In this document: in pieces, positions 1 through 36,865 of the stretch
Position numbering within the stretch: the stretch's first letter is position 1
Layout: the number at the start of each line of letters is the position of its first letter
Origin: Cyanophora paradoxa CCMP329
Lineage: Eukaryota; Plantae; Glaucophyta
Reading direction: 5' to 3'
Assembly (NCBI GenBank): GCA_004431415.1
Contig: QPMI01000038.1
Location: 248,001 to 312,000 of the forward strand
DNA length: 64,000 nt
Translations under genes and position numbers: made by a program
The notes under the pieces: model-generated
Database searches by the model: none
Told to the model about the DNA's origin: nothing
Seen by the model: only the letters and a program-made list of their open reading frames with translations

Positions 1-213
1 GGAATGAGGTTCGGAGGCCGGCGCTCGGGAGGTCATTCGGGGGCCCAGTTCGCAGCACCGGGAAACGCGACCGCAGGAAAACGCGCGCGCGGCATTTCGC
101 GCTCGCATTTTCCGGCTTCCCGCATGATCGCGCGTCACGGTGACGCGTCACCGTCGGTGACGGCGACGCGTCCGCCGGCCTTCGACCCGTGACGGATCGG
201 ATTCATCCCCATA

Positions 214-254
214 GCACGCTCGACGGTCGGCGCGCGTGGGGTCGGCGACGGGCC
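214..254. repeat. Second dispersed motif of the island (gcRcgctcgacgKtcggcgcgcgtSgggtcggcgacgggcc)
   Basis: 41 nt with 3 mismatches to 3012-3052. Variant at 3133-3182 and partial copy at about 738-762. Confidence 0.8.
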
Positions 255-286
255 GCGCGCGTTTTTTTCGAGCGCAATGAGTGACC

Positions 287-649
287 ATGGGCAACGCCGA
301 GTCACGACCGCCGGGCGCGCAGGCCTCGACGACGCAGCCGCAGCAGCAGGCCGCGGAGGATGACGGCGGCGAGCTCGAGCTCAAGCTGACACTCTACGCG
401 CTGGTGCTGCTGCTGGCCACGACGGCGCCGTACGGCCTGTACAAGGCCTTCCGCGGCCTCCACGGCCGCTTCGGCTGGAAGGGCAGCGCGCCGCTCGGCG
501 TGGTGATGCTGCTCCTCACGTTCATGGTCGGGCGCGTCGGCCCGGCAAAGCTCACGATGACGTCAGGGCTCGCGCTCACGTTCACTGGCGTCTCCATGGA
601 CAACGACCTGGCACTCGTGCTTCAGACCCTATGCAACTGCCGCAAGTAA
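287..649 (+). CDS. Small intronless membrane protein with predicted N-myristoylation (cassette gene 1)
   Basis: ATG at 287 gives MGNAES (Gly2, Ser6 myristoylation consensus). Hydrophobic segments LYALVLLLATTAPY and PLGVVMLLLTFMV. Stop at 647-649 lies just before the repeat A junction. Confidence 0.6.
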   Translation: MGNAESRPPGAQASTTQPQQQAAEDDGGELELKLTLYALVLLLATTAPYGLYKAFRGLHGRFGWKGSAPLGVVMLLLTFMVGRVGPAKLTMTSGLALTFTGVSMDNDLALVLQTLCNCRK

Positions 650-665
650 ATCACCGGACAGGGAC

Positions 666-723
666 TCGAACCCTTGATTCAACTCCGCAGGGTTTACCGT
701 CACCGTCACGGTGACGGCGCCTA
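666..723. repeat. 58-bp double-hairpin repeat, copy A
   Basis: tcgaacccttgattcaactccgcagggtttaccgtcaccgtcacggtgacggcgccta, with stems aaccct/agggtt and ccgtcaccg/cggtgacgg. Differs from copies B and C by 1-2 nt. Confidence 0.95.
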
Positions 724-776
724 GAGTCGGTTTATACAGCACGCTCGGCGCTCGGCACGTCGTATAATCGCATTCA

Positions 777-1394
777 TCACGGGTGGGGGAAGCCGGGCGG
801 CGGCGGCGACAGGGCCGCGAGGCGCGCGACGGTGTCGCGCGCGATCCGATACGCCGGCACGAGGACGTCGTACACGTAACCGCGGCCCGTGCCGTCGTGC
901 AGGTCGTAGTGGCCCGTGCGGCCGAAGAGCGACGGCTGGCCGACGTGCGGGCAGTGGTGCTTGAGCTCGTTGACGAGCGTGGCGAACGGCTTGCCGGCGA
1001 ACGCCAGCTCGCCGAGCCGCGCGCGGGCCTCCGCGACGAATCGGAAATCGCTCTGCGCGAACGGGTAGCTTGCGAAGTATATGTTGCCGTCGCGGCGGTA
1101 CGGGCCGCGCGGCTGCGCGCGCTCGCAGTAGTGCGCGACGCTGTCCAGCAGCGCCGCCAGGCTCACGGTGGCGGTGAACGCCAGCCCGTTCAGCTCGTCC
1201 GCCGCCGGCGCCCCGGCCCCGGCGCACAGCTCCTGGGCCTGGCAGACGAGCGCGCCGACCACGCACACCGCGGCCCGCACAGTGCCCAGGTGGCCGGCGG
1301 CGTTGAGGCCGCTGGCGGCCGGTTCCCGCGCGCCGCGCATCACCTGCCAGAAGCGCGAACCGTCAGACAGCAGCGGGAACGCGTCGTCCGCCAT
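777..1394 (-). CDS. HEPN-like (Cthe_2314-like) putative RNase, paralog 1
   Basis: Intronless; first ATG at 1394 (MADDAF). Motifs ALLDSVAHYC, NIYFASY and LVNELKHH (NxxKH, a HEPN-type variant). Aligns with ORF 2261-2914. Confidence 0.55.
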   Translation of the reverse strand: MADDAFPLLSDGSRFWQVMRGAREPAASGLNAAGHLGTVRAAVCVVGALVCQAQELCAGAGAPAADELNGLAFTATVSLAALLDSVAHYCERAQPRGPYRRDGNIYFASYPFAQSDFRFVAEARARLGELAFAGKPFATLVNELKHHCPHVGQPSLFGRTGHYDLHDGTGRGYVYDVLVPAYRIARDTVARLAALSPPPPGFPHP

Positions 1395-1480
1395 GGGCTC
1401 ACCGTCGACGTGCGAAAGAAGCGCCGGGCCAGCGAACACGGCGCCAATCGGGCCCGCGGGGGCTCGAACTAGGGTCTTTG

Positions 1481-2164
1481 ATGGAAAGCGCCGAGGCGGC
1501 GGCGGCTGCAGCGGCGCTCGGCGCGCTGCCGGCCGGGCTCCGACCAGTCACAGCCCTGCGCGGCGATGCGGCCAACATCGCGGACGTTCTTTCGGAGCTT
1601 CGGTTGATCCGGGTCAACGTGCCCGACAAGTCGCCGGAGCTCTCTGAGATCGACTCAGCGCTCGCGCCGCTCGCGCTCCTATTCAGAAGCATGCAGGCCG
1701 CCGGGCTCGTGGACGCGCACCCGGCGCTCGTGACGCCGAAGCAGTTCGACGTCCTGCTCACGGACATCCGTGACCGCAGCGACCTGGAGTCAATCGCTCA
1801 GCTGTTCGGCGTCGCTTACCTCGCAGAAGCCCCGCCGGACCGCCGCCCCGCGTTCCCCGTCGAGGGCCAGATCGCCGGCCCCAACAGCCGGCCGCTCGCA
1901 GTCCTGCCGGTCGCCGCGAGGCGCGGGCGCGCCGTGTTCGCCCCATTCATCATCGACACGGGCTCGCCGCACACCTACGTCTCGGGCGACGTCATCGAGG
2001 CGCTCGGCCTCTCGTCTGTCTCGGCGCTCGGCGCCACGCTCCTGGTCAACGGCCGACCGGCCACGGTGTACGAGTCGCACTCGCACTTCAGCAAGGCCTG
2101 CGTGCTCGGAGCCTCGTACTTCGTCGCAAACCGCCTGGCCTCACCGTCCGATACGCATCGCTGA
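1481..2164 (+). CDS. Retropepsin-like (clan AA) aspartyl protease
   Basis: Intronless ORF. FIIDTGSPHTYVS catalytic DTG motif, followed by SHSHF..CVLG (hydrophobic-hydrophobic-Gly motif). Confidence 0.75.
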   Translation: MESAEAAAAAAALGALPAGLRPVTALRGDAANIADVLSELRLIRVNVPDKSPELSEIDSALAPLALLFRSMQAAGLVDAHPALVTPKQFDVLLTDIRDRSDLESIAQLFGVAYLAEAPPDRRPAFPVEGQIAGPNSRPLAVLPVAARRGRAVFAPFIIDTGSPHTYVSGDVIEALGLSSVSALGATLLVNGRPATVYESHSHFSKACVLGASYFVANRLASPSDTHR

Positions 2165-2260
2165 GCCTCTCGATAGCCGAGGAGTCTGGTTTGACTGGTT
2201 AGGTAGTACTGTCGTATATATATTCGCATTCATCACGGGCCACGGCAGCGCGGACAATCG

Positions 2261-2914
2261 TCAGACCGCGGGCCACTCGCGGAGGCGCACGCCGCACTGG
2301 ACGGCGAGCGCGGCCACGCACTGGCAGAGCAGGCGATAGGCGGGCGCGACTGTGCCGGCGACCAGGCGGCGGCCGGCGGCGTCGCGGACGTCGAGCGCGC
2401 CGTCCGCGTCCGCGGACGCGACGCCGAACCACGGGAGCGTGTGCTTGGCGCGGTTGGCGACGGCGGCAAAGTCGCCGCCGTTGTAGAAGTCGGGCCGCCG
2501 GAGCGCCAGGCGCGCGCGCTCGACCGGCTCGAGCCACTGGTGCGCGAACCGGTAGCTGTCGAAGTAGAGCTTGTCTTCCCGCCGCTCGCCGCTCGGGAAG
2601 TGCCGGTCGCAGAAGCTCACGACGCCGTCCAGCGCCGATTGGACGCCGGCAACCGCCGCGACGAGCAGCGGGTTGTACACAAACGGGTCGCCGGCGCCCG
2701 CGCGCATCTCGTGCAGCGCGTCGTTCACGCAGTGCGCCACGTGCACGGCGGCGTTCGCCAGCACCACCACGTGGCCCTCGCGGTTCAAATCCTCGCCGAG
2801 CGCGCCGCCGGCCGCCGCCCGTCCGTTGAACTGCTCGCGCTGCCAATCATGCATCAGAGCGCCGCGACCGTACTGGCGGGCGCGAAAGGACCGCACCAGC
2901 GCCCGACGCGCCAT
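2261..2914 (-). CDS. HEPN-like (Cthe_2314-like) putative RNase, paralog 2
   Basis: Intronless 217 aa. Motifs LNREGH, SALDGVVSFC, KLYFDSY, VANRAKH and PAYRL are colinear with paralog 1. Confidence 0.55.
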   Translation of the reverse strand: MARRALVRSFRARQYGRGALMHDWQREQFNGRAAAGGALGEDLNREGHVVVLANAAVHVAHCVNDALHEMRAGAGDPFVYNPLLVAAVAGVQSALDGVVSFCDRHFPSGERREDKLYFDSYRFAHQWLEPVERARLALRRPDFYNGGDFAAVANRAKHTLPWFGVASADADGALDVRDAAGRRLVAGTVAPAYRLLCQCVAALAVQCGVRLREWPAV

Positions 2915-2938
2915 CGGCCAAACGGGACCCGCCGAGAT

Positions 2939-2996
2939 TCGAACCCTTGATTCAACTCCGCAGGGTTTACCGTCACCGTCAGAGTGACGGCGCCTA
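2939..2996. repeat. 58-bp double-hairpin repeat, copy B
   Basis: Same core as copy A with 2 substitutions in hairpin 2. Lies about 25 bp upstream of the HEPN-2 ATG. Confidence 0.95.
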
Positions 2997-3061
2997 TGCT
3001 CGCCTCTGGTGGCGCGCTCGACGTTCGGCGCGCGTCGGGTCGGCGACGGGCCCGCGGGGAG

Positions 3062-3119
3062 TCGAACCCTTGATTCAACTCCGCAGGGTTTACCGTCACC
3101 GTCATGGTGACGGCGCCTA
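3062..3119. repeat. 58-bp double-hairpin repeat, copy C
   Basis: Same core as copy A with 1 substitution. Similarity to A continues for about 20 bp (gagtcgg.ttatacagcacg). Confidence 0.95.
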
Positions 3120-3541
3120 GAGTCGGCTTATACAGCACGGCCGACGGTCGGCGCGCATCGGGTCGCGTCGGGTTGGCGACGGCTGAATCGGAACATTGTC
3201 CTTTCATGTAACATCAATGGCGAATCAGGCGCGAGCGCTGACGTCACCGTGACGTCATCCCGGACTCGCCGGTTCGCCGCCGGTCCGACCACCGCCCGCG
3301 TCACGGGTGCCACGGGAGTCACGGGAGTCACGCGTGGCGGTGGCGGGTCGGCGTACCCGTGGCGGGCCACGCCTGGCTCGACCCCCCCGCACGCCGGTCC
3401 CGGGGGGGTACCGCCGACCCACGAAATCCCCAGGGTTCCGAGTTGACAACGCTGCAGCCGCTGCTGTGCGCTGCAGCCGCCGCTTACAGCTTGCCAACGG
3501 GGTTTTCGGGATAGCGCGAGGTGGCGGATAACCGCACGGAA

Positions 3542-5626
3542 ATGCTCTCGCCCGGGGCGGCTGCAGAAGCTTTCGATGTGCTGCCCGACGTCGTCATAGC
3601 CGAAGTGTTCAAGCTCTTCGGGCTGCGGGCGGGCTGGCCCCTGCGCGGCGTATGCAGGTCGGCGCGACTGCGCCCGCCGTAGCTAATTAAGCATTACCGC
3701 CGTAGCTAAGCATTTCGCCGCAGGCGGTGGCGGCGGCTGGTCGAGGAGACGGAGTGGGCGAGCTTCGAACTAACCGGCGCGGCGGCGAGCGTCGAGCAGA
3801 GCCGCGAGAGCGCGTACGAGGCAGCAGCGGCGCTCTTTGAGAAGCGGAAGCTGCGGCTCGGCGGAGGCGGCAGCGTCACGCTCAGGCCGTGGGTAGCGAG
3901 CTGGAGCTTGATTCCGGATACTGGGTCAGCTGCAGTGGAAGCAGTGTGCAGCGTTCTCTCCGCCATCACGCACACCCACAGCGGCCCTGCGCAGCCGCGG
4001 GAGGTGATAGTCGAGCTGCAAGAGCTGTTCGATGTCAGTCGCTTTGACGAGGACTTCCTTCACGCCTTCCTGCTCGGCGTGCTGCGGGCGCTGCGGCCGG
4101 CGGAGGGGGCGGCCAGCGGGCTGGAGAGCCTCAGCGTCGGCCTCACTATGGAGGATGAGGGCGGGCAAGGGGACCACTGCCGAAGGGGATCGCTGCCGTG
4201 GCCGGAGTCCGCCGACCTGCGGGCCGCCCTCGCCCCCTTCGGCGGCGCGCTGCGCTCCCTCCACCTCTTCTTCGGGCCCCGAAACGCGGGCTTAGACGCC
4301 GCGTCCGCGGCGGCCATCGCTGCCGCCTGCCCCCTCCTCCGATCCGTCCTGCTTCCTTTTGACGAGGAGTCGCTCTCCGAATCGCTGGCGGCCCTCGCCC
4401 GCCTCGGGTGCCTCGAGGAGCTGGCCGCTGTCCTCACGCCTCTTTCTGAGGGCGGCGTGTCCGAGGGGCTGGCGGCGCTGGCGGACGGCGCCGCCGGGCG
4501 AAGCATCAGGAGGATCTCTTTCCTCGCCGAGGCGGAGATGTGCAGGTGCGCTTAAGCTTCCGATCCGCAGTCCGAGTCCCTTCGTGGCGCTCCTCGCTGA
4601 CGGATTTGTTCGACGCAGGAGGGGCGAGTTCCCGCGCCGGCCAGAGGCGGACTCGAGCTCCGGCGAGTGCCTGGGTCTCGTGCTCTACGACGCCGGCCTC
4701 CTCGCGCTCAGCCGCATGCCCCAACTCGAATCGATCGAGCCTCTGCGGGTGCTACCGCCTGCTCCGCTTGCTGCGTTGACCCCTCCGTCGGCTGCGTTGA
4801 CCCCCCGCGCGCCGCAGATCTATCCCGGCTATGTGCAGCCCGACGCCGTCCGGTCCCTCGGCCGCATCGCGGGCCTCCGCGAGGCCTCCCTGGAGTTCGT
4901 CTGCAGCTCGTCCCGTCAGGAGACGTCGGCTGCGCTGCGCGCGCTGGCGGAGGCGGTGGACGGCCTCCCGCGCCTGTCGCGGCTGCGGCTGCAGCTGCAG
5001 ACGAGCATACGCGAGGGCGCCGGCGCCGTGGCCGAGTTCCTCGGGAGCGCCGGCGCGCGGCGCGCCCTCACGGACCTCGAGCTCGAGGTGCACCCCACCT
5101 GGACCTCGGAGGAGGTGCGCGCCGTGGGGGAGGCGATGTCTGGCCTGCCCCGCCTCGCGAGGCTCAAGCTGGACCTGCGCGGTGCGTGTGGGCCGTGCGC
5201 TCCTCCGGCAGTGCATTCGCCCGCTCACCTCAATGTGCAGGCTTGGACCCGACCGCTGCGGACGTAGTGGCCCTCCTCGGGGGCGGGTGCCTGTCGATCA
5301 CGGCGCTCGAGCTTCTCCTGCACCGGCCCCTCTCCGAGGCGGAGGCCGAGGCGATTCTCGCCCTGCCGGCCCTCCGCCGCCTCCGCATCTCCTCCAAGCT
5401 CTTCCCCCTCCCTTCCCTCCGCCCCTTCGAGGTGTGCGGCTGTACCCCGAGGCCCCCGCGCCGGCCTCTCATCTCTTGCCCCGGCCCGGCGCGGCAGGTC
5501 CTGCGCGGCCTCCGGCCCGAGGTCGCTGTAAAGGTCGACCCTCACCTCCGGCGGCTGGGCCGGGAGCAGGTGCGAGCCTTGACCGAAGCTGTGAACAGCA
5601 TCTTCGCGGGGCGCCCTCCTATTTGA
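3542..5626 (+). CDS. F-box/LRR-like protein (spliced), family copy 1
   Basis: MLSPGAAAEAFDVLPDVVIAEVFKLFG...VCR|RWRRLVEETEW F-box split by a GT-AG intron. LxxLxL repeats (CPLLRSV, LPRLSRLRL, LPALRRLRI). Confidence 0.8.
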
Positions 5627-5785
5627 TCATGACAGCCCGGCGGTTTGAGCTCGTTCGAGTTCTGATCTTAGACTTTTGAAAGACCTGAGACTCTGTAACG
5701 GCCCCGCGAAAGTTTCCATGCTAGTTTCCTGCACAGCGGTGGAGAGGGTCTGGAGAAACATGCACATGATCGACAGCGGGTGCTA

Positions 5786-6140
5786 CCGTGTAATACTTAA
5801 TTACCGCGCTGACATAACTACTCTAAAGATCTACGGTGGGCGTGCCCACTCGTAGTACACAACGAGGATACAAGTCACGGTATCGGGAATCACAGGGATT
5901 CGAAGTACAACGTAGCGGAAACAGCAGGAACCGACATAACTACTGCGCTACCATATTACTGCGCTCTATATTTTTACAACGCAGTAATTTGGTAGCGCAG
6001 TAAAGCGCGCGCGCCTACCGCAGAGTACCGCGCCAGTACCCAGGACCGGCGCAGAAAGTTTAGAACGCAGTAATTTGGTGGCGCAGTAAAGCGCCTACCG
6101 TAGTTCCGGCGCAGAAATTTACCGTAGTACCGGCGCAGTA
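5786..6140. mobile_element. Truncated Tc1/pogo-like MITE fragment with internal repeats
   Basis: TA + CCGTGTAATACTTAATTA resembles the TIR at 36866. Internal repeats aacgcagtaatttggt.gcgcagtaaagcgc. No right TIR seen. Confidence 0.4.
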
Positions 6141-7809: not shown

Positions 7810-9856
7810 ATGATATCGATCAATGCGCTGCCGGATGCAGTCATCGCCGACGTCTTCAAGCAGCTCGGGCTGCGGGCGAGCTGTCCCCTGCGCCGCGTGT
7901 GCAGGTCAGCGCGATATCCACGATTTCGCCCCGCGCGGCCGGCGCCGCAGCCACGACCCGGGCCATGATCTCCCGGCCGCGGCCCGCCATATGCATGGCC
8001 ACAGCTAAGTATAAGCATTTGGTGACATGTGCAGGCGGTGGCGTCGTGTGATCGAGGAGACGGAGTGGGCGAGCTTCGACCTGCGTGTACGTACAAAGCG
8101 CATCAAGCACGTCTCCGACGGCGTGTCAGCGCTGTTCAAGAAGAGGAAGCTCCGGCTCAGCGCCGGCGCGAGCGTCGCCTTGAGGCCGGAGCTCGAGGTC
8201 GGCGCGTCTCGCGACCTCGAGCTCTGGGACATCATCGGAGCCGTCGGCGATGTCCTCGCGGCCATCAGCGTCACCCACCGCGGTCATAATCAGGCGCAGC
8301 CTCGGGAAGTCGTTGTCGAATTTCTCGAAGGAGACGCCGACCTTTTCGACGAATACGCATGCGCCGTCGACGAGCTGTTCATGCAACTGTACGTGCTCGG
8401 CGTGTTGGCGGCCTACTCGTATCGGCTGCGCGACGTCGGCGGGACAGTCAGTGGCCTCCACAGCCTCAGCATCGGCCTCACCAGCAGGAGGGAGGCGCTG
8501 CCCGGCTCCGACCGCCAGATGCACTTCCCGTCGTCCGCCGACGGGGAGCTGGGTGCCGCCCTCGCGCCCTTCCGCGAGCTGCGCTCCCTCGACCTCTTCT
8601 TTCACAACTCCGCCGGCATCTCCCCGGAGACCGCCGCCGTCATCGCCGCCGCCTGCCCCCTCCTCCGCTCCGTCACCATCTGCCCCCTCATTATCGCCGC
8701 CAACGAGGTGCTCGGGGCCCTCGCGCCCCTGGCGCACCTCGAGGAGCTGGCCGTCGTGTGGCCGTCGAACTGCGGCCTGCACGACTTCAACCACGGCGTG
8801 GCCGCCCTCGCCTGCGGCGCCGCGGGCGCGAGCCTTCGCAAGATCGCGTTCGTCGCCGAGGCCGGCCTTCACAAGTGCGTTTCGCAATTCGAATTCATTT
8901 TGCGGATTTCGCGATATTGAAAACCGACAAAGAAACCGCGGCGTGCATGCAGGGACGGCGAATTCCCGAAACGATCTGCGGAGGCCCCTCCGGCGCACGC
9001 TGCGGTCTTCGCCTGCGGCCTCCGCGCCCTCAGCCTCATGCCGAATCTCGAATCCCTCGGGCCGCTGATGGTGCGCGGTCTTACTAGAATTCGCTCTGTA
9101 CATGTTGCGATCGCCCCTGCAGCTGAATCGAGCTCACTAATTCTATTCCGTGCGCACGCCTCGCAGTTCAAGGCGCGCGAGCTGGACCCCGAGGAAATCC
9201 TGGCCCTCGGCTGCGTCGCGAGCCTGCGGGAGGCGCACGTCTGCCTCTACAGCGCGCCCCAGGACCTCGAAGACGACCGCAGCGACCCGGACTTCGCCTC
9301 GGGGGCCCTGCGCGCCCTCGCGGGGGCGCTCACCCGCCTGCCCCGCCTCGAGCGCCTCCGCCTCGACCTCGTCGCCACCGGTGCGCTCTTCGACGCCGTG
9401 AGCTCATTGCGGCATAGAATGACGTCGGTGTCGACGCATGCGCAGGCAGCGGCCACGGGCCGGCGAGCTGCGCCGCGCGCCCCGCGGACGTCGTCGCCGT
9501 CTTCGCCAGCGCCGGGGCGCGCCGGGCCCTCACGGAGCTGCGCCTGGTCGTCTGCCGGCCCCTCTCCGAGGCGGAGGCCGAGGCGATCGTCGCGCTGCCC
9601 GCCCTCCGCCGCCTCAGCATCGCCGCCGCGTACAGGGCCCAGTCCGCCCCGCCCCTCCGCCCCTTCGAGGTGCCTGCACGGCCCTAGGCCCGTGCACGAG
9701 CGGCTCCCGCGGCCCGACCTCACCGTGCGGCAGGTTCTGCGCGGTCTTCGGGCCGGGGTGGTGGCGGAGGTGAGGGTGCAGAGCCCCTGGGGCGCCCCCT
9801 CCCCCGCCTTCGAGGGGGCGAGGGCCGCCATCCAGCGCCTCGTCCGGGGGCGCTAG
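7810..9856 (+). CDS. F-box/LRR-like protein (spliced), family copy 2
   Basis: MISINALPDAVIADVFKQLGLRASCPLRRVCR|RWRRVIEETEW, followed by LRR-like exons. Confidence 0.8.
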
Positions 9857-15120: not shown

Positions 15121-17137
15121 CTAGCGCCCCGGGAAGCGGAGGTGGATGGCGGCCCTCGCCCCCTCGAAGGCGGGGGAGGGGGCGCCCCAGGGGCTCTGCA
15201 GCCTCACCTCCGCCGCCACCTCGGCACGAAGACGGCGCAGAACCTGCCGCACGCGTACGGTCAGGTCGGGCGACGGTGGCCGCGCGGCCGCGGGCCAAGG
15301 CCTAGGGCCGTGCAGTCACCTCGAAGGGGCGGAGCGGCGGGGCGGACTGGGCCCTGTACGCGACGACGATGCGGAGGCGGCGGAGGGCGGGCAGCGCGAC
15401 GATCGCCTCGGCCTCCGCCTCGGAGAGGGGCCGGCAGACGACCAGGCGCAGCTCCGTGAGGGCCCGGCGCGCCCCGGCGCTGGCGAGGACGGCGACGACG
15501 TCCGCGGGGCGCGCGGCGCAGCTCGCCGGCCCGTGGCCGCTGCCTGCGCCGACATAGACGTCATGATACGCCGCAATGAGCTCACGGCGTCGAAGAGCGC
15601 ACCGGTGGCGACGAGGTCGAGGCGGAGGCGCTCGAGGCGGGGCAGGCGGGAGAGCGCCCCCGCGAGGGCGCGCAGGGCCCCCGAGGCGAAGTCCGGGTCG
15701 CTGCGGTCGTCTTCGAGGTCCTGAAGCGCGCTGTAGAGGCAGACGTGCGCCTCCCGCAGGCTCGCGACGCAGCCGAGGGCCAGGATTTCCTCGGGGTCCA
15801 GCTCGCGCGCCTTGAACTGCGAGGCGTGCGCACGGAATAGAATTAGTGAGCTCGATTCAGCTGCAGGGGCGATCGCAACATGTACAGAGCGAATTCTAGT
15901 ACGATCGCGCACTATCAGAGGCCCAATGGACTCGAGGTTCGGCATGAGACCGAGGGCGCGGAGTCCGCCGGCGAAGACCTCAGCTGGCGCCTCAACCGGC
16001 GGATCCGCGGATCGTTTCGGGAATCCGCCGTCCCTGCATACACGACCGGGTTTTATAGTTAGTTATTAATATCGCAAAATCAATTGCAAAACGCACTTGT
16101 GAAGGCCGGCCTCGGCGACGAACGCGATCTTGCGAAGGCTCGCGCCCGCAGCGCCGCAGGCGAGGGCGGCCACGCCGTGGTTGAAGTCGTGCAGGCCGCA
16201 GTTCGACGGCCACACGACGGCCAGCTCCTCCAGGTGCGCCAGGGGCGCCAGGGCCGCGAGCACCTCGTTGGCGGCGAAGATGAGGGGGCAGATGGTGATG
16301 GAGCGGAGGAGGGGGCAGGCGGCGGCGATGATGGCGGCGGTCTCCGGGGGGATGCCGGCGGAGTTGTGAAAGAAGAGGTCGAGGGAGCGCAGCTCGCGGA
16401 AGGGCGCGAGGGCGGCACCCAGCTCCCCGTCGGCGGACGACGGGAAGTGCATCCGCCGGTCGGAGCCGGGCAGCGCCTCCCTCCTGCTGGAGAGGCCGAT
16501 GCTGAGGCTGTGGAGGCCGCTGACTGTCCCGCCGACGTCGCGCAGCCGATACGAGTAGGCCGCCAGGACGCTGAGCACGTACAGTTGCATGAACAGGTCG
16601 TCGACGGCGCAGGCGTATTCGTCGAAAAGGTCGGCGTCTCCTTCGAGAAATTCGACAACGACTTCCCGAGGCTGCGCCTGATTATGCCCGCGGTGGGTGA
16701 CGCTGATGGCCGCGAGGACATCGCCGACGGCTCCGACGATGTCCCAGAGCTCGAGGTCGCGAGACGCGCCGACCTCGAGCTCCGGCCTCAAGGCGACGCT
16801 CGCGCCGGCGCTGAGCCGGAGCTTCCTCTTCTTGAACAGCGCTGACACGCCGTCGGAGACGTGCTTGATGCGCTTTGTACGTACACGCAGGTCGAAGCTC
16901 GCCCACTCCGTCTCCTCGACCACCCGTCGCCACCGCCTGCGGCCGAATGCTTAGCTACGGCGGATGATCATGGCCGGCGCAAGCGCAGCGGCTGCAGCTG
17001 GCGCGCGGGGCGGGGCGAGGTCGCGCAGACCTGCACACGCGGCGCAGGGGCCAGCTCGCCCGCAGCCCGAGCTGCTTGAAGACGTCGGCGATGACTGCGT
17101 CCGGCAACGCATCGAAGGCTGCGCGCGCCAGCTGCAT
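15121..17137 (-). CDS. F-box/LRR-like protein (spliced), family copy 3 (inverted duplicate of copy 2)
   Basis: MQLARAAFDALPDAVIADVFKQLG. Exon 16066-16923 is almost identical to 8027-8920. Confidence 0.8.
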
Positions 17138-22200: not shown

Positions 22201-25200
22201 CTCTCCTTCGGCCCCCTCGTCCTCTTCCTCCTCGCCGCCGCCGCCGCCGTCCATGCGCAGGTTGCGCCGCAGCTCCGAGGCCTCGCCCTGGTCCGCCCTG
22301 CGCCCGCTTCAGAGCCGTTCCGGGGTACGCACGAGAAGCAGGGGGGGTACTTGGTGCCGACGAAAGCGAGGCCGTCGCAGGCTCCGTCCATGAGGACCTG
22401 AGAGGCGTCAGAATTATAAGCTAATTCGGCGAGAGACGTGTGTGCGGACCTGCCGGCGGAAGGTCGAGCCCAGCACGTCCCACGCCGTCTACGCGCTCGC
22501 CGTCAGCCGAAGGATTACATTCCGGGGGGTACGCGGTCGGACCTTCTCGTCCGAGGCGCGGTGCAAGGCGGAGACGACGAGGAGCAGGCTGCACTTCTTC
22601 ATGAAGTCCAGCGTCACCTGGGTACGGCATTGGACCGGGGGTACAGCATTTCGGCGTCGCGATCGAAAGCCGTCGGACCTGGACGCGCGCGGCGTTCTGG
22701 TCCTCGACTCCGGGCAAATCCTGGAAGCGCGGGGTGAGTGAAGCCACGGAAAAGAGAGGGGTACAGCGCAGGAAAAGAGAGGGGTACAGCGCAGGAAAAG
22801 AGAGGGTTACAGCGCAGAAAAAGAGAGGGGTACGGCGCACGACAAGGCAGACGCCGGGGGCGAGGCCGCGGAAGGGGCCCGCGAGGTGCACCTCCTCCAC
22901 CAGGGGCCAGAGCTGCGGACCGGAAGGACAATCAGTCCGATTCGCCCTGTGACGAGTGTCGTCGCGGGAACGCGCCTGGGCGCCGCCGCGCTTGAGGCGC
23001 CCGGCGCGGTCGAGGGGCGCCTCGGTGTAGGACTGGACCCACGGCTGCAGCCTCGCGGCGAGCCGGGCCGTCGCCCGCTTCGGCTGGCGGATCTCCCGCT
23101 GCACTTTCCTGCAGGGCGGTGAGCGGAGCTCGAAGCAGAGCTGCGCGGAGCTGCGCGCCTCCAGGAGGGGAGTTTGCAGAGCTCGTCCCACTCGGCGATG
23201 CGCCCGTACACGGCGAGCACCGCCTGCCGCTCCTTCTTCACCTCCTGGCCGGCCCTGGGGTACGAGGTGAGGCGAGGTAGAAGAAGGGGGGGGGGGTACG
23301 GGACCCACCGCCTGACGTCGAGGCGCCCGGCCTCGTCGCGGAGCGCGTCGAGGAGGGCCAGTACCCGCTTCTTCCACTGCGGCCCGCTCCAGTCAGAGGG
23401 GTACGGGGAACGGCGGGAGGGGGTACGGCCGCACCTTCCCTTCGTCGATGAAGCGGACCTCAGCGCTGAAAGGGCACTGCTCGTTTGCCGCAGGCTCCGT
23501 GCGGGTCATGAAGATCTGCAGGAAATCAGCGCATCACTCTAGAAGAAAAGGGGGGCACGACGAACCTTGGACGCGGTGCAGGCATGTACCCCCGAAGTGG
23601 GGAGTACAGCGCCCTCCCCAAGCACCGCGTTCAGGCACGAACTCTTGCCTGCGTATCCTAGTGAGGGGGGTACGTGTAGCGAAAGGGGGTACGCGAACCG
23701 GCGCCGGAGATGCCGACGACGCCGGCGATGACGGGCTTGGCGGCGGCGTCGGCTAGAGCCCGCAGCTGCTCGGCCTGCATCCGGAATGCGTGGACACGGG
23801 CGTCGCCCATCGCCCCGGATCGCAGCGCCGCGTCGACGTGCTGGAGCACCCACGAGGCGCCCCGCGTCGCCTCCGTCCCAACCTCTGCCGCCCGGCGCGT
23901 GAGAGGGGTACGGCGACGGTCGGGCGGGGGCGCGCACCGGGAGGGAACCGCGGCTCGTCCGGCAGGAAGCCGGAAGCGGGCTGGGCGGGGGGCTCGGGCG
24001 CCTGCGCCGGCGCCTCCGGCGCGGGAGCGGCCGGGGGCACCTCCGCCACCGCCGGCCCCGGCGCTGCAGCTGAGACCTCCGCCGCTGGCGCTGCCGCTGC
24101 AGCCGGCGCGGCCGGCGCCGCCGGCGCCATGTCTGACGCCTCCACGTTCGCAGCAGGGTACGGGGGGACCTGCTGCTTCTCGGACTCGCTCGTCTTGGGC
24201 GGCCCCTGCGGGCTGGTCCCTTCTCGGTCCTCCTCGCGCAGGGGTACAAGGACGGGCGGAGACGCCGCCGCACGCCCCGCCGGCCCTCCGGCCGCCGGCG
24301 TGACCGCTTCGGGCGCATCGGCGGCCGGCGCGCGGGGCGGCGAGAAGAGGGGAGGGGGGCTCGGAGGGGGGAGGGAGAGGACGATGGGCGCTTGGGGAGC
24401 CTGGGAGAGAGAGGGTCCGGCGGCCGAAGCGGGAGGGGGAGGAGCGGGAAGGGCGAGGACGAGGGGTACGGACGCCTGGGAGGCCTCCTCGGGGCCGGGG
24501 AGGGCCAGGGTCTGGCTCTTGCTCTGGCCAGCCCCGCCCTGCGACGCCCTTGCGAGGGCGACGACGCCCTCGAAGGCGTCCTGCAGCTCCTCCCGCACGC
24601 CGAACTCGGGTACGTCGAGCGCCGCCAGGGCGCCCTCTACCCCCCTGCGGACCAGCGCCGTCACCCTGATGCACTGCTCGACGATGCGGCTGCACGTCCG
24701 CTCCCGCGCCGCTTCCTCGTCCGGTAGCGCCTCTGGGGGTGCGTAAGGAGAGATTGAGGGGGAGGGGGGTACAATGCGGTCGCACCGGCGAGCTTGACGT
24801 GGGTGTACCCGGCAAGTTCGACGGGCTTCCAATCAAGCGGAGCTTTCAGAGCCGCGCTCGCCGCAGCCGCCGCCCAGTCGTGTCTGCGCTCGATCCGTCA
24901 GGCGGGGCTTGCTGGGGACAGGCGCTGGCGCCCGCAACTAACACCTCGGGCGCTTGGGCTCGGGCTCCGCAGCCTGGCTCGAGGGCGCGGGCGCGGGCCG
25001 CTTGGAGGTCATTGGTGGCGGCGGTGCCATGGAAACAGGCCGGGCCGCGCTCTGCGCGAAGACGGGGGCGCGTAGAGGTCAGGGCCCGCAGAATTGATCC
25101 GCCGCAGCCCGGCCCGCGCGCGCACGATCGGCTGCGTCATCGACAGCGGCGGCGCCTCCGCCATCGGCTGCGTCACCGCAACGCCGGCTTGTGACGCGCC

Positions 25201-28252: not shown

Positions 28253-28740
28253 TTTTTTTTTTTGGTGAATTACCGGCCACAGTCTCTAGACACCAGCACT
28301 GCGGGGGCTGCCCAGGGGGCATAAAGACAAAAAAGCAAAATAACTAAGACAAGAGCACGAAGAAAGATAAGACAAAGAGCCAAAATCGACAATAAAAAAG
28401 AAAAGACACAGAGCTCGAGACAGAGCGAGAAGAGACGAGAAATCGAGCAGATCTAGGGACAGAGGATGACTGACACGAAGAAGAGCCAGAGCTAGAGATA
28501 CCATCAAGATCGGAAGGAATTACATCACTAAGAAGCGGAGGACGAAATTGAGAAAGATAAATAACAGGAAGCAGACAAGTAAGAGGAACAACAAGACGAC
28601 GCGGAGGCGGAGGCGAAGCAGGACGACGCGAAAGGGCAGAGCTACGGCACGAGGTCGAGGAGGACACAGGAGGCGGAGCAGGCGGATCAAGAGCAGGCAA
28701 AAGGACAGTCAAAGGAATCACTAAAGCCGGCCGGGGTCGA
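28253..28740 (-). mobile_element. Short 5'-truncated copy of the L1/Tx1-like non-LTR retrotransposon
   Basis: Reverse complement of about 41570-42062. Poly(T) at 28253-28263. TSD aggcgccgaaatcta at 28238-28252 and 28740-28754. Confidence 0.9.
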
Positions 28741-28813
28741 GGCGCCGAAATCTAGATCCTTCTGACGCTTTAGCTATGTATACGTATATAGTTATAGATC
28801 ATCGGTCTAGATC

Positions 28814-31800
28814 TTACGCATCGTGGATGTGACGGGCAGCTGCAGGAGCGAACATGTCGGTGACGATACCATGGCCAGATCTAGAATAATCCGCCGGCGC
28901 CCCGTCCTCGCCCTCATCGGCGTCGGAGCGCGAGAAGAATTCGAGGGAGCCAGGCCGGGAGTGCCGCAGGGGTACCCGCGGCCGACCCCCGGCCGCGTCT
29001 ATGCTGGCGCCACTTAAGCTTGAGCTTGCCGCGCGGCGAAGCTGCGTGTCGCACAATTCGTTAGAATTAGCTGCTCGAGCTCGCGCATTTTGACTCAGTG
29101 AATATGAACGCTCTAAGTACCTCGCGATCGTAGATAGGAGCGTCCAGCTGCATGAAGGGGTGGGCGAGCTCAACGGTAGTCGACTGATCGTACGCGTGGA
29201 CGTCGCCGTTGCGCTGCCCAGCCCCCTCCATGTGTACGTGAACGTGGACATGCAGGGGCGAGGACCCCTGCAGCTGCGGAGGCGCCTGCCAGGGCGCATA
29301 CGAGGGGGATATCGATGGCGACTGCGCTTGCGTAGAATCCCCTTTCCGCCGGCTTGTCCGGGACCGGAGCTGGTGTTCGATTGGCGTTGGCGCCTCGAGC
29401 TCCCCATTGTCGATCGTCGATTCGAAGCGCGCATCCGCATGCGCAGGATCCGGAGCTGGATCACGAGGGGACTCGCTCCCGATGTCGAGGTTGTGGATTG
29501 CAGGGGCTTCCGGCGCGAAGGCCCAGGGACGGTCCTCCGCGTCGGTCTGGCTGGGCCTTCTGGGCCCGTGGGCCCGCCAGGCCAGCGCCCCGCTGGAGCC
29601 CGCGCCCGAGTCGCCTCGAGCTTGAGCCCGCTTCGCCAGCCGAGCCCGCTCCTCCAGTTCCATCTCCAGCAACGTTGGCGTCTTCACCGCCCGCGTCCCT
29701 TTCAGACTCTTGCCTTCGCCGTTGGGCCGGTGGATCGCGATCGAAGCCTCTGGATCGGCGTGCTGTGCGCCGCGCTGCTCGCGATCGCCGTCGGGTGTGA
29801 GCGCGTCCGCCAGCGCCGCGGCAGCTGCCGCCATTCGGTAATCTCGGGCTGTGCCCGCAGCGCTCTTGTGCCTGCACGCGCTGCAGTCAGCGAATTCTGA
29901 TCACATGTACAAGCCTCGGGGGAGGTGCACGCCTGAGCATTCTGTAGACGGCTGCCTTTTGCGCTGCATTGTTCCGGAATAAGGGAATCTGTGAGGCGTG
30001 ATTAGGCCGGGAGCGCTGCAGTTAATGCCGTGCACTATAATTAACAGGACGAGCGTCCTCAGCGGGCTCGTCGGTTGTCCTATGTTGCTCTCATCAGAAC
30101 GCGCGCACCTTCCGGAAAGCCAAAATGATTACAGCCCTAAACAGGATCCCGGCGGCCTGAGTACAATTCGCGGTGAGAAGCCGTGCACGTGGAATAACTT
30201 GAAATGGGGGGCTCGCCATGGTGAGGAACACAATGTTTGCGAGGACCACAAAGACGGTTATTGTCGCCGTCTGATCATCCATATGAGTTCAGTCGGGTAC
30301 AGCTTAGAAATCAAAGGATGCCATAATATGAAAGCGCAGACGGACCGCCGACTCGCTGATGTGGATAAGGTTCCGGTAAATTAGACCGCAGTAGATTGTC
30401 AAAAGATTCACGCCCCAACTCGAAACAGCAAGAATATTGAGAAGCGTATCCTGTTAGCAAGAGGAGCGCAGCCTCAGTGTCGGTCCGCGATCCGCGAGCG
30501 CAGCCTCAATGCGCGCGCCTGTACGATGAACGCACACTGAAAGGTCTTACGTAGAGGTCCACGTACGCATTTATCATAAAGAAAGCAAGGGCGAAGAACG
30601 CCTGCAGGTATATCATATTAGAAGCTGCAGAGTCAACGTCATGAGGAAGCCATGGCCAGCTCGGCTCACCAGCTCGTCTGTCGCTTCCGCCAAGAAGACC
30701 GAGCCGAGAATGACAATTATCTGGACAGGGCCGGGGAGGCTGCATAAGAAAGCAGTGGAAACTGCAGGAAGAAAGGGGGTGGCGCATGCCTTCCTCCAGA
30801 TTTGGACCGCTTCCCACCCGTAGAATCGTTGCTGGTACCCCTGAAGCAGGAACCTAATTCGGCGTCAGAAGGTGCGATATCGATGATATTGCGATCGATC
30901 CCCAACTTGGCAATCGGTGTGCAGCGCGCACCCGAAGCGGAACGCGAATTGGGGGTCCTTCAGGCGGCCATGGCGGCCCGCGAAAACGATGGCAGTCGCC
31001 GCCAGGGGCACTCCCGCGACGACAAAGATGAGGCCCGGGGCTCCGACCTGAGAGAAGAAGCATAAATCAGGCGCCGCCGCGGAATGTGCGACTCGAAATG
31101 CATGGCGCACGGCGGCGAGCCACCTCTTGTGCTCCGCAGAGAGACACTGCGAGAAAATCGGTGTCCAGTCGCGATCGGTCGCCATAAGCTTTTTTAAAAA
31201 GCTGGAGAAAGCTTACTTCGACACTCATGCTCCCTCTTACAAAAGATTTCGTGATTCCACCGCCAGAGAGGCTCTTGCATCGGAAAATATCCAGCGCCTT
31301 CGCGGCCACCATTGGAAACACCTGCTCCCCTCATTATATATAATCAATATTAGATCTAGATGCATATGCGTGTGCAGGTATATGTATATGCTGGGGTCTC
31401 GCAAAAGGCTCAGATATCGTACCAAGAAAACAGAAACCTGAGCGGAAGAGGCGAGTGAGGGGGCGGTACTACGGTATCACGTGCATATTGGGGTCTATTT
31501 GCAGACGAACCATCGAGATGATCACATAGAAATCGGCCCAAGACGGGCGGTAGCTTGAAGATGTGACACCAGGCGACGTATAAGTAGCTTCAGTACTGCA
31601 CGCGCACGATTATAATCTCTTGTTCAAATAGCTGAGACGAGTGTGCGTACGCTAGCGCTGTGCTTTCGGGCCAGACCACGCTCGAAACCCGCTTGGCGAC
31701 GAAGACTAGCGCACTGTTCGAGCGCTGCAGCTGTACATGTTCTGGAGACTCAGCCTTCTTGATGAAACGATTGATATTCACGGAGGACGTCGATTTACCT

Positions 31801-34800
31801 TTCCAACTTTTGATTTCGGATTTGAGCTTTTTCCGCCATGAGCGACGGTGTCGATTTCCCGATTGTCTTCCTGGGCAGCATCCGAAGTCCGTTCAACGTC
31901 CTCGGTAATTGACATTGTACTCCTGGATCTAGAATTAGTACGAGACGACCAGATTCATGCCTCATGATCAGCAGGCGTGAAAGGCACTAGCTATAGGATA
32001 TATATAGAATTTCGAAAGCGCCAAGTGCACTCACGAGTTGCGGGAGAAGACCCGCGCTGGCCCGTCCTTTTTAGCCTTGAGCACGGAGAGCCATGCCATC
32101 ACCGACACCGCAGCCACAGGCTGTGCGTTCAATTCGTTGAGGGGTGTTGGCCTGGATTAGAAGCAAGAAATGCGAATGGTGAAGCGGACCAGCACGAAGC
32201 AGAAAAGCGGAAGGAACATGTACCCAGCGGCTGCGTCACCACGTCTTAACTTAAGGCGTATTCCAAAGTTTCCAATTGCAAGCGCAAGAAAATTACAGAA
32301 GCTTAAATACCCTTATAAAAATACACCAGCTCGCGCAGATACTGCGCAAAAGTCACTTCGTGCACATCAGAATCAACCGCAGCAAAGTACTAGTGCCGCG
32401 CACCGGACGCTCCGCCATTATGCAGTCGATTGAAATCCACGCGTCCATGGGGTCTGCAATGTTGAAAATGTCAGCTTTTCAAAAATGGCAGAGATCGATA
32501 TCACTACTGCGAACGACACGTGCGCACTGTTCGTAGAGCTACCAATGAGCAGAATGCGGGCGATAACCTCGGGCCAACGGAGAGGAATGGACTGGCGGCC
32601 ACGGAGATTAAATCAACAACGGTACGGTTTCTGATGCATCATTAAACAAGAGGAACCTGCACGAAGGAATTGAACCTGAAGAAGCGCTCAGTGCAAGCGA
32701 TCAGCATCATGATCAGGAGGTCGCTCACTGCAAATGGTTGATGAGGATGCGCAGGATCACAGAGACTTGTGAAGACGACCTAAGTACAGGTCAGCATACA
32801 TGCGGCCACGACAGTTGGTCGAAAGGGAAACTTGAAAGACATCGGCGCACTTGAACGCCGACCGGACAGCAAACCAAGACATAATGCCAGCACCCTGGTT
32901 TCCAGCGGGCTCAATGGACAGGGCAGCAATTAAAGCGATCCATATAATTATAACATGAAGATTGCTTACCGCGACGATGCCGAGCAAGCTAAGGAAAACG
33001 ATTGCCGCCGAGGCCTGCAGAAGCGCTGTGAGGCCTATAGCTAGGGCAATGCAAGATTGAATGCCGCATAATCAATTTCCGCGCACTTCCGGGTTGGCGC
33101 ATTTGACGCAGCTTGCCGCTTCGCTGCTGCCGCCGACGGAGCCGTACCCGTACTGATTCAGTGAGACCCAGCTGCAGGTCAGAAGAGCAAATTCAAACAC
33201 TTGAGGAGCCAAGGACGAACATCGCATGTGGCACAGAACGTGCCGACGAAGCCCTCACGGCACTGGTTGGCATAGGCGCCGCGGGCGGTCGTTGCGTTCC
33301 CAGATCCTCCCGCACAGCCTCCGTGTGTACACTTCACCAGAGAGGAGTAATCCCACGACAGGCGGTAAAAGTCCGGCTCGACTCCGAGAAGCGGGCCGCC
33401 CTCGCAGATGCCTCCGGGGCTCGGGCACTTGAGGCACCGGTCGTACGCGGCGCCGTCGAGCGGGGCAACGCTGTAGAATCCCCGAGAGCACGAGCACTCC
33501 GAGATGCTGGCCCCTCCAACTCGGTTTGTCATTGAATTCTCGGGGCATTTGGTGGCCTGCCTCGATTGTGAGCGGACCGGAAATTTTTCGAGCGTCTTTC
33601 GAATTCTCACCTTGACAGACGCGCTATCAGATACGAACTCGTCGAAATCCGCAGCCGTGCAGGCGACGCTACCCGCCCGGTTCTCCCAGAAGCCCTGAGT
33701 CACATCCTTAGTTCAGAGGATACGCGTACTGAAGCTACACATGTCTTTCCAAGCTTATCGTGAGCTCGTCTTCGCGGTCGTGATCGTGATCACCTTCGGG
33801 CAGGGCGAGCAAGACGTTGAATTGACTCCAGCAGCGAAGAAGCCGGGGTTACCTGCAAACGATCAGAGCTAAATGGGGCGCGAAAAGGGGGCGCAGCCTC
33901 GCAAAAGAGGAAGTCCTTTGACGCACATGGCTCGCAAATTTCAGCACCGGATTTCCGAGAAAAAGTACCCGGGGCGCACGGAATGCAGCGGTCGCTCCCG
34001 CTCACGCCCGCGAACGAGCCAGGCGGGCCTGCGAAACGTCATTTCGGTTCGGATCCGCCTGCCACTGGGCCGGGCGCGTCCAATCGAACCGCACTGACGC
34101 ACAGGGCTGGCACGACGCGAAACCGACCCGCGAGAAAGTGCCGCGCGGGCACGAAACGCAGAGCCTGCTCTGGCTCAGGGCCTGCCCGGCCGCGCAAGAG
34201 CCATCAAACGGTTTCTGCGGTCCCGGCCACGTTATTTGAGTTCCGGAGATCATCGTCAACACGCCGCTATTCTCCAGCTTGGCAACCTGCGCCGATCGCG
34301 ATAACCAAGTCAAATCATAAGTCGAGCTCGCGATCGATCAGAGCTACATGCGACGCTTGATTTGCATGCACGCACCGGCTTCCATTGTCCGTCGACATAA
34401 TTCACGAGCACGAACGTAGCGAGCCGATCTCCGTTCTTGTCCAGCTCGACGGGACCAGTGATGCCGGCAACTTTCTGGTTGATGATCGTGTCGAAGAGCT
34501 GCTTGCCAAACGGGTTGGTCCCGAAGAGCTCTCCAGGACGCGTGTAGCTCGAGTTTACGGCCACGCCCTGCTTGATGAGCGTGTCCAGCGCCGTCGCAAC
34601 GACTTGCGGAAAGGCGTCGGAGAGTGCGACGCGCGGGGCCCCCTCTCTCAAAGCGAATTCGAAGACTTACCCTGGACAGCGTCGGCCAGCAGAACCGCGT
34701 AGGGATCCGTGAATGGCACGCCAGCCTCCGGGTACGCGTCCGGACTCTGTCTGCTGAAGGACTCGATAAAGTGCTGCACTGCCGGCGTGTCCTGTACCCA

Positions 34801-36664: not shown

Positions 36665-36865
36665 GATCGTCGTGCTGAGGCTGGAGAAGAAAGAGAGCTG
36701 GGAAAAGCTGTATTTGTTCTTACGAGGCGCGCGGTCGCGCGCGCCGGCGTTCTCCGCTGCAGCTCAGCGCGCTACAGCCGCTGAGCTAGCGCGCGGCACA
36801 GCGCGGCGACTTGCGGGGATATCGATTAGGCTGCAGCGCTACTAGGCTTGCTCGCTCAGCGGCTA

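What the first reader, a model, noticed from the sequence alone, without database searches (positions are those of the whole stretch)
131..3182. Integron-like gene-cassette array: intronless cargo genes separated by conserved 58-bp double-hairpin repeats
Seen, reading the minus strand: repeat C, an empty ~65-bp unit, repeat B, HEPN-2, an inverted aspartyl protease, a degenerate site (1449-1475), HEPN-1, repeat A, an inverted membrane gene, then a partial hairpin (131-170). The repeat cores differ by only 1-2 nt, while the two HEPN paralogs have diverged heavily and the other genes are unrelated and in mixed orientation. Several units end in a shared second motif (214-254, about 738-762, 3012-3052, 3133-3182). 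All four genes lack introns in an otherwise intron-dense genome. Established: bacterial integrons use hairpin attC sites between single-gene cassettes. Inference: this is a eukaryotic or viral cassette-capture system on a mobile element or endogenous virus. No recombinase is visible in the window; it may lie upstream.
Basis: partly seen in the sequence, partly recalled or inferred. Interest (0 to 1): 0.9.

Follow-up and report, generated by a model that had tools for sequence, protein, structure and literature searches.

The report
Repeat-studded cargo arm of algal element
The repeats are real, but they lie in the fixed four-gene end of a multi-copy, likely mobile element in the alga Cyanophora, with the same gene order at other loci and introns in two genes, so they are more likely repeated regulatory or recombination modules than a working integron-like array.

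Summary
Three 58-bp cores (666-723, 2939-2996, 3062-3119; 1-2 nt apart), the second motif and the half-site at 1449-1469 are real. Two claims fail. (1) Both HEPN-like genes have a GT-AG intron spliced in contigs of a probable RNA run (one run, HEPN-1 weakly supported). (2) The host is Cyanophora paradoxa, and the same four genes stand in the same order on 4 other contigs, plus an error-ridden fifth. Contigs from 2 DNA runs showed no new sequence joined to the core. The block ends in a ~218-bp repeat (3232-3449) that has about twice the cargo depth and continues into other flanks, as an element end would. All 7 inverted GTCAC...GTGAC pairs in the window lie in this element, including its end repeat. 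Best reading (0.55): fixed cargo arm of a terminal-repeat transposon or Polinton-like virus, with duplicated cis-acting modules that probably allow swaps between copies. A frozen site-specific cassette platform remains possible (0.2): conservation breaks at one GTTCGA, and site C has palindromic arms. No recombinase was seen; the rest of the element was out of reach.

The parts
3232..3449 (.). Terminal repeat (~218 bp) of the element; probable right end at 3449; holds a GTCAC inverted pair (3243) and three further GTCAC copies
   Evidence: Depth 635 (X4) and 233.5 (X2) against cargo 395 and 104; 2 contigs join it from other sequence at 3232 and 2 run into other flanks after 3450. Inverted or direct orientation of the other copy not determined
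3124..3182 (-). Second motif (M2) plus TATA-like TGTATAA (3134) upstream of core C
3062..3119 (-). Core repeat C (58 bp); a variant with 6 differences over 3031-3132 is present in other copies
3047..3066 (-). Variable arm after the G of GTTCGA at C; pairs with the constant arm around a 7-nt spacer
   Evidence: p=0.008 against shuffles, 0.005 against random window sequence
2997..3061 (-). Empty 65-bp unit holding M2 (3012-3052)
2939..2996 (-). Core repeat B; covered by the spliced contig of HEPN-2, so likely in its 5' leader
   Evidence: record 5 spans 2257-3000
2261..2914 (-). HEPN-like gene 2 with a 57-nt intron at 2840-2896 (198 aa spliced)
2212..2242 (-). 3' motif shared by both HEPN-like genes (20 of 21 identical to 763-783)
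1481..2201 (+). Aspartyl-protease-like gene (240 aa in other copies; one-base gap after 2138 in the window, probably an assembly error)
1449..1469 (-). Half-site D: arm 18 of 20 identical to C's arm, no core; lies between the divergent HEPN-1 and protease starts
777..1402 (-). HEPN-like gene 1; likely 59-nt 5' intron at 1344-1402 that removes the annotated ATG, leaving a start at 1340 (187 aa)
   Evidence: family; fold
724..783 (-). HEPN 3' motif, partial M2 and TGTATAA (738); other copies carry a longer variant here
666..723 (-). Core repeat A
287..649 (+). Small hydrophobic (probably membrane) protein, 120 aa; other copies carry a different but related C-terminus
   Evidence: X2 depth halves after 578; no Pfam or atlas hit
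131..267 (.). M2 (214-254) and two overlapping GTCAC inverted pairs (134, 147) without the second hairpin

Best explanation
Positions 1-3449 are the end of a multi-copy, likely mobile element in Cyanophora paradoxa that carries four genes in a fixed order, and the repeats are probably duplicated cis-acting modules rather than attC sites. Shown: several copies, fixed order, introns in two genes, an end repeat that meets other flanks, and GTCAC inverted pairs confined to the element. Inferred: the element is a terminal-inverted-repeat transposon or Polinton-like virus. Each module (M2, TATA-like box, GTCAC pair, B-box-like GTTCGANYC) would bind a transcription factor or element protein and drive or insulate the next gene. 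The arm likely grew by tandem duplication of module plus gene, which explains the two HEPN paralogs with a shared 3' motif, and by later loss (empty unit, half-site D). The near-identical cores likely act as homology patches through which diverged copies exchange segments, as PeSLs do in T4-like phages. That would explain the alternative membrane-gene end and the alternative M2 on the two sides of core A.
For: Same order at 4 other loci with consecutive gene or accession numbers, and a fifth in broken models. In X4 all 8 partly fitting contigs over 2900-3480 are listed, and those at core or M2 lead to site E of the same element or to the longer M2 variant beside site A; X2's listed rows show sites A and E. 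By my arithmetic, core depth (about 880 in X4, 290 in X2) is roughly A+B+C; depth is only a rough guide. Spliced GT-AG introns. 7 of 7 GTCAC-N0-8-GTGAC pairs in 64 kb lie in 1-3449. Outside the cores GTCAC/GTGAC occurs 11 times in 871 bp against a shuffle mean of 2.5 (max 7 of 200) and 0.94 per kb elsewhere. Repeat B is inside a spliced contig. Variant segments flank core A. HEPN relatives occur on a giant-virus-like contig with no comparable repeats and on a 592-kb Chlamydomonas incerta contig, the same length as the contig reported to hold a giant endogenous virus (PMC9693826, passages). This genome holds 366 PLV/virophage capsid hits (PMC10120064, supplementary Table S4 row).
Against: No transposase, integrase, capsid or polymerase gene was seen, so the element class is untested. 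GC is 70%, the same as the host flank. Core B has no TGTATAA, and core A lies at converging 3' ends, so the modules are not uniformly placed as promoters. Conservation drops sharply at one GTTCGA and D has an arm without a core, which plain duplication explains less neatly than site-specific exchange. Splicing rests on one run whose RNA status is a guess. Some annotated loci could be assembly redundancy: cargo depth is only 2.6-4.1 times the adjacent flank, whose own copy number is unknown. 4 loose-end rows of X2 and 36 contig pieces were not shown.
Confidence: 0.55

Rival explanations
1. A true site-specific cassette platform, now frozen or rarely active in this strain. A tyrosine recombinase, presumably inside the element, would join units at G/TTCGA, using the constant left arm, a 7-nt spacer and a unit-specific right arm.
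For: All 4 junctions read GTTCGANYC and identity among A, B and C ends there. The right arm pairs with the constant arm at C (p=0.008 shuffle, 0.005 random) and marginally at B (0.059, 0.042). D looks like a hybrid half-site. There is an empty unit, and the cargo is small and toxin-like. PLVs commonly encode tyrosine recombinases (PMC12220804, passages).
Against: Same order at all loci examined. No new flank. No joint between repeats listed, although short-read contigs cannot resolve exchanges inside a 58-bp core. No pairing at A (p=0.53) or D (0.19). GTTRRRY is not met. Two genes have introns. No recombinase seen. The core was absent from viral and metagenome contigs.
Confidence: 0.2
2. The junctions are stacked scars of integration into tRNA genes at the T-loop: a constant element arm fused to displaced tRNA 3' ends, as in tandem bacterial islands.
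For: The arms resemble T-loop plus acceptor ends. A degenerate B pattern gave 11 matches in 10 viral loci, of which ARAGORN tRNA-Gln, 1 Ala and 1 undetermined. The A pattern gave 4 matches, 1 tRNA-Lys. The C/D pattern gave 10 matches, 2 tRNAs.
Against: The control failed. An unrelated GTTCGAGTC site from 43286 gave 28 matches, most at the 3' end of a called tRNA of mixed type (22 of 28 loci hold a tRNA), so tRNA hits do not discriminate. The degenerate positions of the A and B patterns were chosen from recalled tRNA variation. Arms B, C and D are 14-18 of 20 identical to one another and partly explained as complements of the constant arm. No tRNA gene or 5' half was found in the window, and no Rfam tRNA match in 1-6000.
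Confidence: 0.1
3. A host segmental duplication, or assembly redundancy, carrying remnants of small non-autonomous transposons (for example Helitron-like hairpin-plus-CTAG ends).
For: On the plus strand the hairpin is followed by CTAG at A and C. GC equals the host's. Two genes have introns.
Against: Depth drops sharply at 3449 and other flanks join there. Core depth leaves little room for dispersed copies. The cargo family is otherwise found in metagenomes and viral contexts. Only 3 nt separate hairpin and CTAG, and B reads CTAT (Helitron end rules recalled, not tested).
Confidence: 0.1

Closest known systems
PeSL regulatory cassettes of T4-like phages RB49/phi1 (PMC2839356; abstract and outline read)
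   Same: Short repeated promoter-plus-stem-loop modules between small non-essential genes; recombination between them shuffles modules and can make mini-circles.
   Different: Eukaryotic nuclear element with spliced genes; no sigma-70-like promoter (0 found); no gene gain or loss shown between copies here; regulatory activity untested.
Bacterial integron cassette arrays with attC sites (PMC8876359; passages read)
   Same: Short genes in mixed orientation between conserved palindromic sites; every junction has GTT; toxin-like cargo; an empty unit.
   Different: No IntI or attI seen; junction is GTTCGAN, not GTTRRRY; the variable part is a whole arm rather than 6 bp; order fixed across copies; two genes have introns and are apparently transcribed.
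Endogenous Polinton-like viruses and virophages of protists (PMC10120064 passages and supplement rows; PMC12220804 passages, section 16 and supplement rows)
   Same: Multi-copy, terminal repeats of about 200 bp, small accessory genes near the end, abundant in this host (366 capsid hits).
   Different: No capsid, ATPase, polymerase or integrase in the part seen; GC equal to host; PMC10120064 treats such elements as intron-free, whereas two genes here are spliced.
Cargo-carrying TIR DNA transposons with subterminal repeats (hAT, CACTA, Mutator, Ginger types; recalled)
   Same: Short binding motif repeated in the end and subterminal DNA; fixed cargo; end reading TGT inward if the boundary is 3448.
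   Different: No transposase or target-site duplication could be checked; repeats lie between genes up to 3.3 kb inside.
Cthe_2314-like HEPN domains (PF18730)
   Same: Predicted all-helical HEPN-like fold: the top four VIA-align rows are HEPN proteins (Csm6 Z 11.2, rmsd 3.0, 126 aligned; HepT Z 10.2); atlas score 0.93; near-invariant K-H motif.
   Different: 0 of 69 family members match a HEPN Pfam model; unrelated helical bundles reach Z 9.3; the motif is N-x-x-K-H rather than the recalled R-x4-6-H; RNase activity untested.

Membership tests
Integron / attC cassette array | Associated tyrosine integrase (IntI) and attI site | not testable with these tools
   None in 1-3449; no genome held; the element interior lies beyond position 1
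Integron / attC cassette array | Core site GTTRRRY at the junction | tested here: not met
   The four junctions read GTTCGAG, GTTCGAA, GTTCGAC and GTTCGAG; only GTT agrees with the consensus in PMC8876359
Integron / attC cassette array | Site folds into an imperfect stem-loop | tested here: inconclusive
   Core z about -2.8; arm pairing significant at C, marginal at B, absent at A and D
Integron / attC cassette array | Variable cassette content or order between copies | tested here: not met
   Same order at 4 intact and 1 broken other loci; no new flank among the listed contigs; one species only
Integron / attC cassette array | One intronless, usually promoterless ORF per cassette | tested here: not met
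   Introns in both HEPN-like genes; two genes between B and D
Integron / attC cassette array | Excised circular cassettes | not testable with these tools
   Only short-read contigs were available; exchanges inside the 58-bp core are not resolvable
Polinton-like virus / virophage | Capsid, packaging ATPase, polymerase or primase-helicase, integrase | not testable with these tools
   Interior not in the window; no related viral locus found for P0017 or P0019
Polinton-like virus / TIR transposon | Terminal repeat at both ends, multiple insertion sites | tested here: inconclusive
   218-bp segment at 1.6-2.2 times cargo depth in X4 and X2, with alternative joins at 3232 and 3450; orientation and far end unseen
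Polinton-like virus / TIR transposon | Target-site duplication | not testable with these tools
   Only one end is in the window
tRNA-targeted integrative island (att scars) | Junction sequence is a tRNA 3' fragment, with a restored tRNA at the other end | tested here: inconclusive
   tRNA hits for the arms are matched by a control site; no tRNA in the window
PeSL-like regulatory cassette | Promoter and terminator activity, and recombination between copies | not testable with these tools
   Only indirect signs: TATA-like box at A and C, repeat B inside a spliced contig, variants flanking A
HEPN domain | HEPN helical fold | tested here: met
   Model pLDDT 87.6; top four rows HEPN, Z 9.8-11.2, but near the helical-bundle background; atlas 0.93
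HEPN domain | R-x4-6-H catalytic motif (recalled) | tested here: inconclusive
   K145 and H146 at least 90% conserved in 69 sequences, with no conserved Arg in the invariant list

The most novel reading that the evidence does not exclude
A eukaryotic integron analogue: an algal virus or transposon carries next to its terminal repeat a platform where a recombinase stacks single genes, including antiviral HEPN-like RNases, at G/TTCGA sites that mimic the tRNA T-loop/B box, with a constant arm, a 7-nt spacer and a unit-specific arm. The Cyanophora copies would be one recently amplified array state, and other strains or viruses would carry other cargo.
Probability: 0.15. Interest if true: 0.9.

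Novelty: new variant of a known kind. Interest (0 to 1): 0.42.

Why it matters
On the best reading it is an apparently undescribed multi-copy algal element whose cargo arm is organised by PeSL-like repeated modules and carries apparently expressed HEPN-like genes from a family seen in giant-virus contexts, which are candidate antiviral effectors. That is useful for protist virology but not startling. If site-specific shuffling were shown, it would be a cassette-capture system in a eukaryote; my two literature searches on that theme listed no such case. The question is cheap to settle from the public assembly.

Tried and rejected
No genome held, so no genome-wide BLAST. Core pattern: 0 matches in viral contigs and metagenome contigs. 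No tRNA by ARAGORN in the window; 4 weak, unrelated Rfam matches in 1-6000. My first hairpin pattern had the wrong spacer length and found nothing; redone. Related-locus searches with P0101, P0020, P0017 and P0019 in viral contigs found none. Alignments A1 and A2 were too diverse for that tool. Foldseek gave no match at E<=0.001 in viral or PDB libraries. The PDB sequence profile search gave 0. PADLOC gave only weak hits. The wide structural search was busy five times and never ran. Profile search A1 returned only 3 proteins and no further Cyanophora paralog (word-limited). The membrane protein had no atlas hit. Earlier findings: nothing. No RNA holder is listed on record. The tRNA-3'-end idea was demoted after its control. 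An LTR retroelement with a primer-binding site was considered and rejected from the sequence: no TGG, and complementarity would run through the T-loop. Terminal-repeat folding is not unusual (z -1.3). The HEPN-1 translation was out of frame and was redone. Literature: searches listed no description of this element. The tig names were not found in the supplements of PMC12220804 or PMC12344493. Most subscription papers, bioRxiv supplements and the cut part of a PMC10120064 table were not seen.
Full report
Observation. The three 58-bp cores exist at 666-723 (A), 2939-2996 (B) and 3062-3119 (C) and differ by 1-2 nt. A 25-mer from them has 3 matches in the window and 0 in 100 shuffles. A and C agree further, 92% over 99 bp. 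The second motif M2 occurs at 214-254, 3012-3052, 3135-3175 and partly at 738-759. Site D (1449-1469) has only the arm that follows the core, 18 of 20 identical to C's. Folding of the core alone is modest (z about -2.8; 3 of 200 shuffles as good).

Host and copy number. The four proteins are in the database as Cyanophora paradoxa gene models. HEPN-2, protease, HEPN-1 and the membrane gene are g1732-g1735 on tig00000073, g278-g281 on tig00000403 and g1569-g1566 on tig00000492. On tig00000984 they are four consecutive accessions, two named and two inferred from accession order. tig00000249 has g22149 and a fused, error-ridden g22150 holding pieces of the membrane gene, the HEPN-1 region and the protease. 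With the window that makes 6 loci in one order. Some may be assembly redundancy: cargo depth is 2.6-4.1 times the adjacent flank in 3 runs, and the flank's own copy number is unknown. The genome is reported as likely haploid (PMC6704402, passages).

Element end. Over 3260-3449, contig depth is 635 in X4 and 233.5 in X2, against 395 and 104 for the cargo, and 95 and 39 beyond 3449. Two contigs enter at 3232 from other sequence, and two leave after 3450 into other flanks. One contig shares only the last 50 bp. This fits a ~218-bp terminal repeat present at both ends of an element with several insertion sites. In X7 the ratio to cargo is lower (78 against 58, for 3289-3449). The far end, the orientation and any target duplication could not be seen, and no genome was held.

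Are there other cassettes? Over 2900-3480, all 8 partly fitting X4 contigs are listed. Those at core or M2 lead to site E of this element or to a longer M2 variant that lies between A and HEPN-1 in other copies. X2's listed rows lead to sites A and E, and 4 rows were not shown. By my arithmetic on the 2940-2959 bin, the shared core has a depth near 880 (X4) and 290 (X2), about the sum of A, B and C. Depth is a rough guide only. No joint between repeats was listed, but short-read contigs cannot resolve an exchange inside a 58-bp core and they drop rare forms. The core was not found in viral or metagenome contigs.

Introns. Contigs of X15 (RNA by guess, one run) skip 2840-2896 and 1344-1402, both GT..AG on the minus strand. 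The first is well supported (depth 12.3, 104 letters on the short side, same intron in models P0002 and P0003). The second is weak (depth 3.4, 29 letters). The first intron is in frame and has no stop, which is why the gene looked intronless. The spliced HEPN-2 contig extends to 3000 and so covers repeat B. A one-base gap after 2138, filled in all 3 other runs, explains the short protease.

Cargo. HEPN-1 has 83 hits at E<=0.001 among 50%-identity representatives. Of 20 hit clusters looked up, 19 are unnamed or 'hypothetical' proteins from ENA, JGI, Logan or NCBI assemblies, and 1 is from Chlamydomonas incerta on a 592-kb contig. That is the length given for the contig with its giant endogenous virus (PMC9693826, passages). 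The one context fetched, L001, looks like a giant-virus contig by my reading of its ORFs (helicase, KilA-N-like, chitosanase-like; names recalled) and has no comparable intergenic repeats. The model (pLDDT 87.6) has HEPN proteins as its top four VIA-align rows, Z 9.8-11.2, close above unrelated bundles at 9.3. The atlas gives a Cthe-2314-like HEPN cluster at 0.93. Pfam matches 0 of 69 members to a HEPN model. HEPN-like is therefore likely, and its activity is untested.

What the repeat is. Hairpin 1 is an inverted GTCAC pair. All 7 such pairs in the 64-kb window lie in 1-3449: in the cores, at 134 and 147, and in the terminal repeat at 3243. GTCAC is also enriched outside the cores, with 11 in 871 bp against a shuffle mean of 2.5 and a maximum of 7. 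A motif shared with the element end and variably spaced suggests a protein-binding site on double-stranded DNA (inference). A and C have TGTATAA about 67 nt before the junction; B does not. All 4 junctions read GTTCGANYC, a B-box-like string (consensus recalled); 4 more such strings occur in the rest of the window. Beyond that G the arm varies, but B, C and D remain 14-18 of 20 alike. The arm pairs with the constant arm around a 7-nt spacer at C (p=0.008), marginally at B (0.059) and not at A or D. I tested whether the arms are tRNA 3' ends. They hit tRNA genes, but an unrelated control site did so more often, so that test does not discriminate.

Variation between copies. The membrane gene has two related C-termini (P0012/P0013 against P0014/P0015), with X2 depth halving after 578. 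The segment between A and HEPN-1 has a longer form, and C has a 6-difference variant. These are allelic swaps around the cores, not gains or losses of genes.

Mechanism. Most likely (0.55) this is a fixed cargo arm built by duplication of module plus gene. The modules would serve transcription or end recognition and, being near-identical, would act as patches for exchange between copies, as described for phage PeSLs (PMC2839356, abstract). A site-specific cassette platform frozen in this strain (0.2), stacked tRNA-integration scars (0.1), and segmental duplication with transposon remnants (0.1) are the rivals. It is not filed as an integron: GTTRRRY, variable content and intronless single genes were tested and not met, and the integrase could not be tested. 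It is not filed as a PLV either, since no hallmark gene was reachable, although this genome is rich in them (366 capsid hits, PMC10120064 Table S4 row).

Verdict. A real and apparently undescribed element with an unusual modular arm. The integron claim is weakened but not excluded. Interest 0.42; the novel case has probability 0.15.

Noticed in passing
window 28253-42060: 13.8-kb region of 57% GC bounded by 483-bp inverted repeats (98%) that begin in T and A runs; no capsid-like ORF was evident, and ORF fragments near 38400-40400 look like a decayed LINE (my reading). Probably a degenerate DNA transposon with nested inserts.
   Followed up: partly
window 3521-27700: Cluster of near-identical F-box/LRR-like genes (label from recall) in direct and inverted copies, e.g. 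8031-8889 against 16082-16940 at 97%; the element end lies about 70-90 bp before one of them.
   Followed up: partly
window 3400-3449: A contig shares only the last 50 bp of the terminal repeat and then differs, suggesting a related low-copy element with the same end.
   Followed up: no
window 5937-6000: AT-rich 26-bp inverted repeat with a short loop, possibly a small transposon end.
   Followed up: no
window 22725-22862: Five tandem copies of a 23-bp unit.
   Followed up: no
proteins P0039, P0104, P0105 (Chlamydomonas incerta): The HEPN-like domain is fused to a long protein whose C-terminal part looks TnpB/Fanzor-like (my recognition from recall, untested); 3 copies on a 592-kb contig.
   Followed up: no
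L001 3525-4193: HEPN-family relative on a 28.6-kb metagenome contig with giant-virus-like neighbours and no intergenic repeats.
   Followed up: partly
window 763-783 and 2219-2239: The two HEPN-like genes, 37% identical as proteins, share a 21-nt motif at their 3' ends, near where contigs of run X15 stop (766 and 2257); possible 3'-processing signal.
   Followed up: partly
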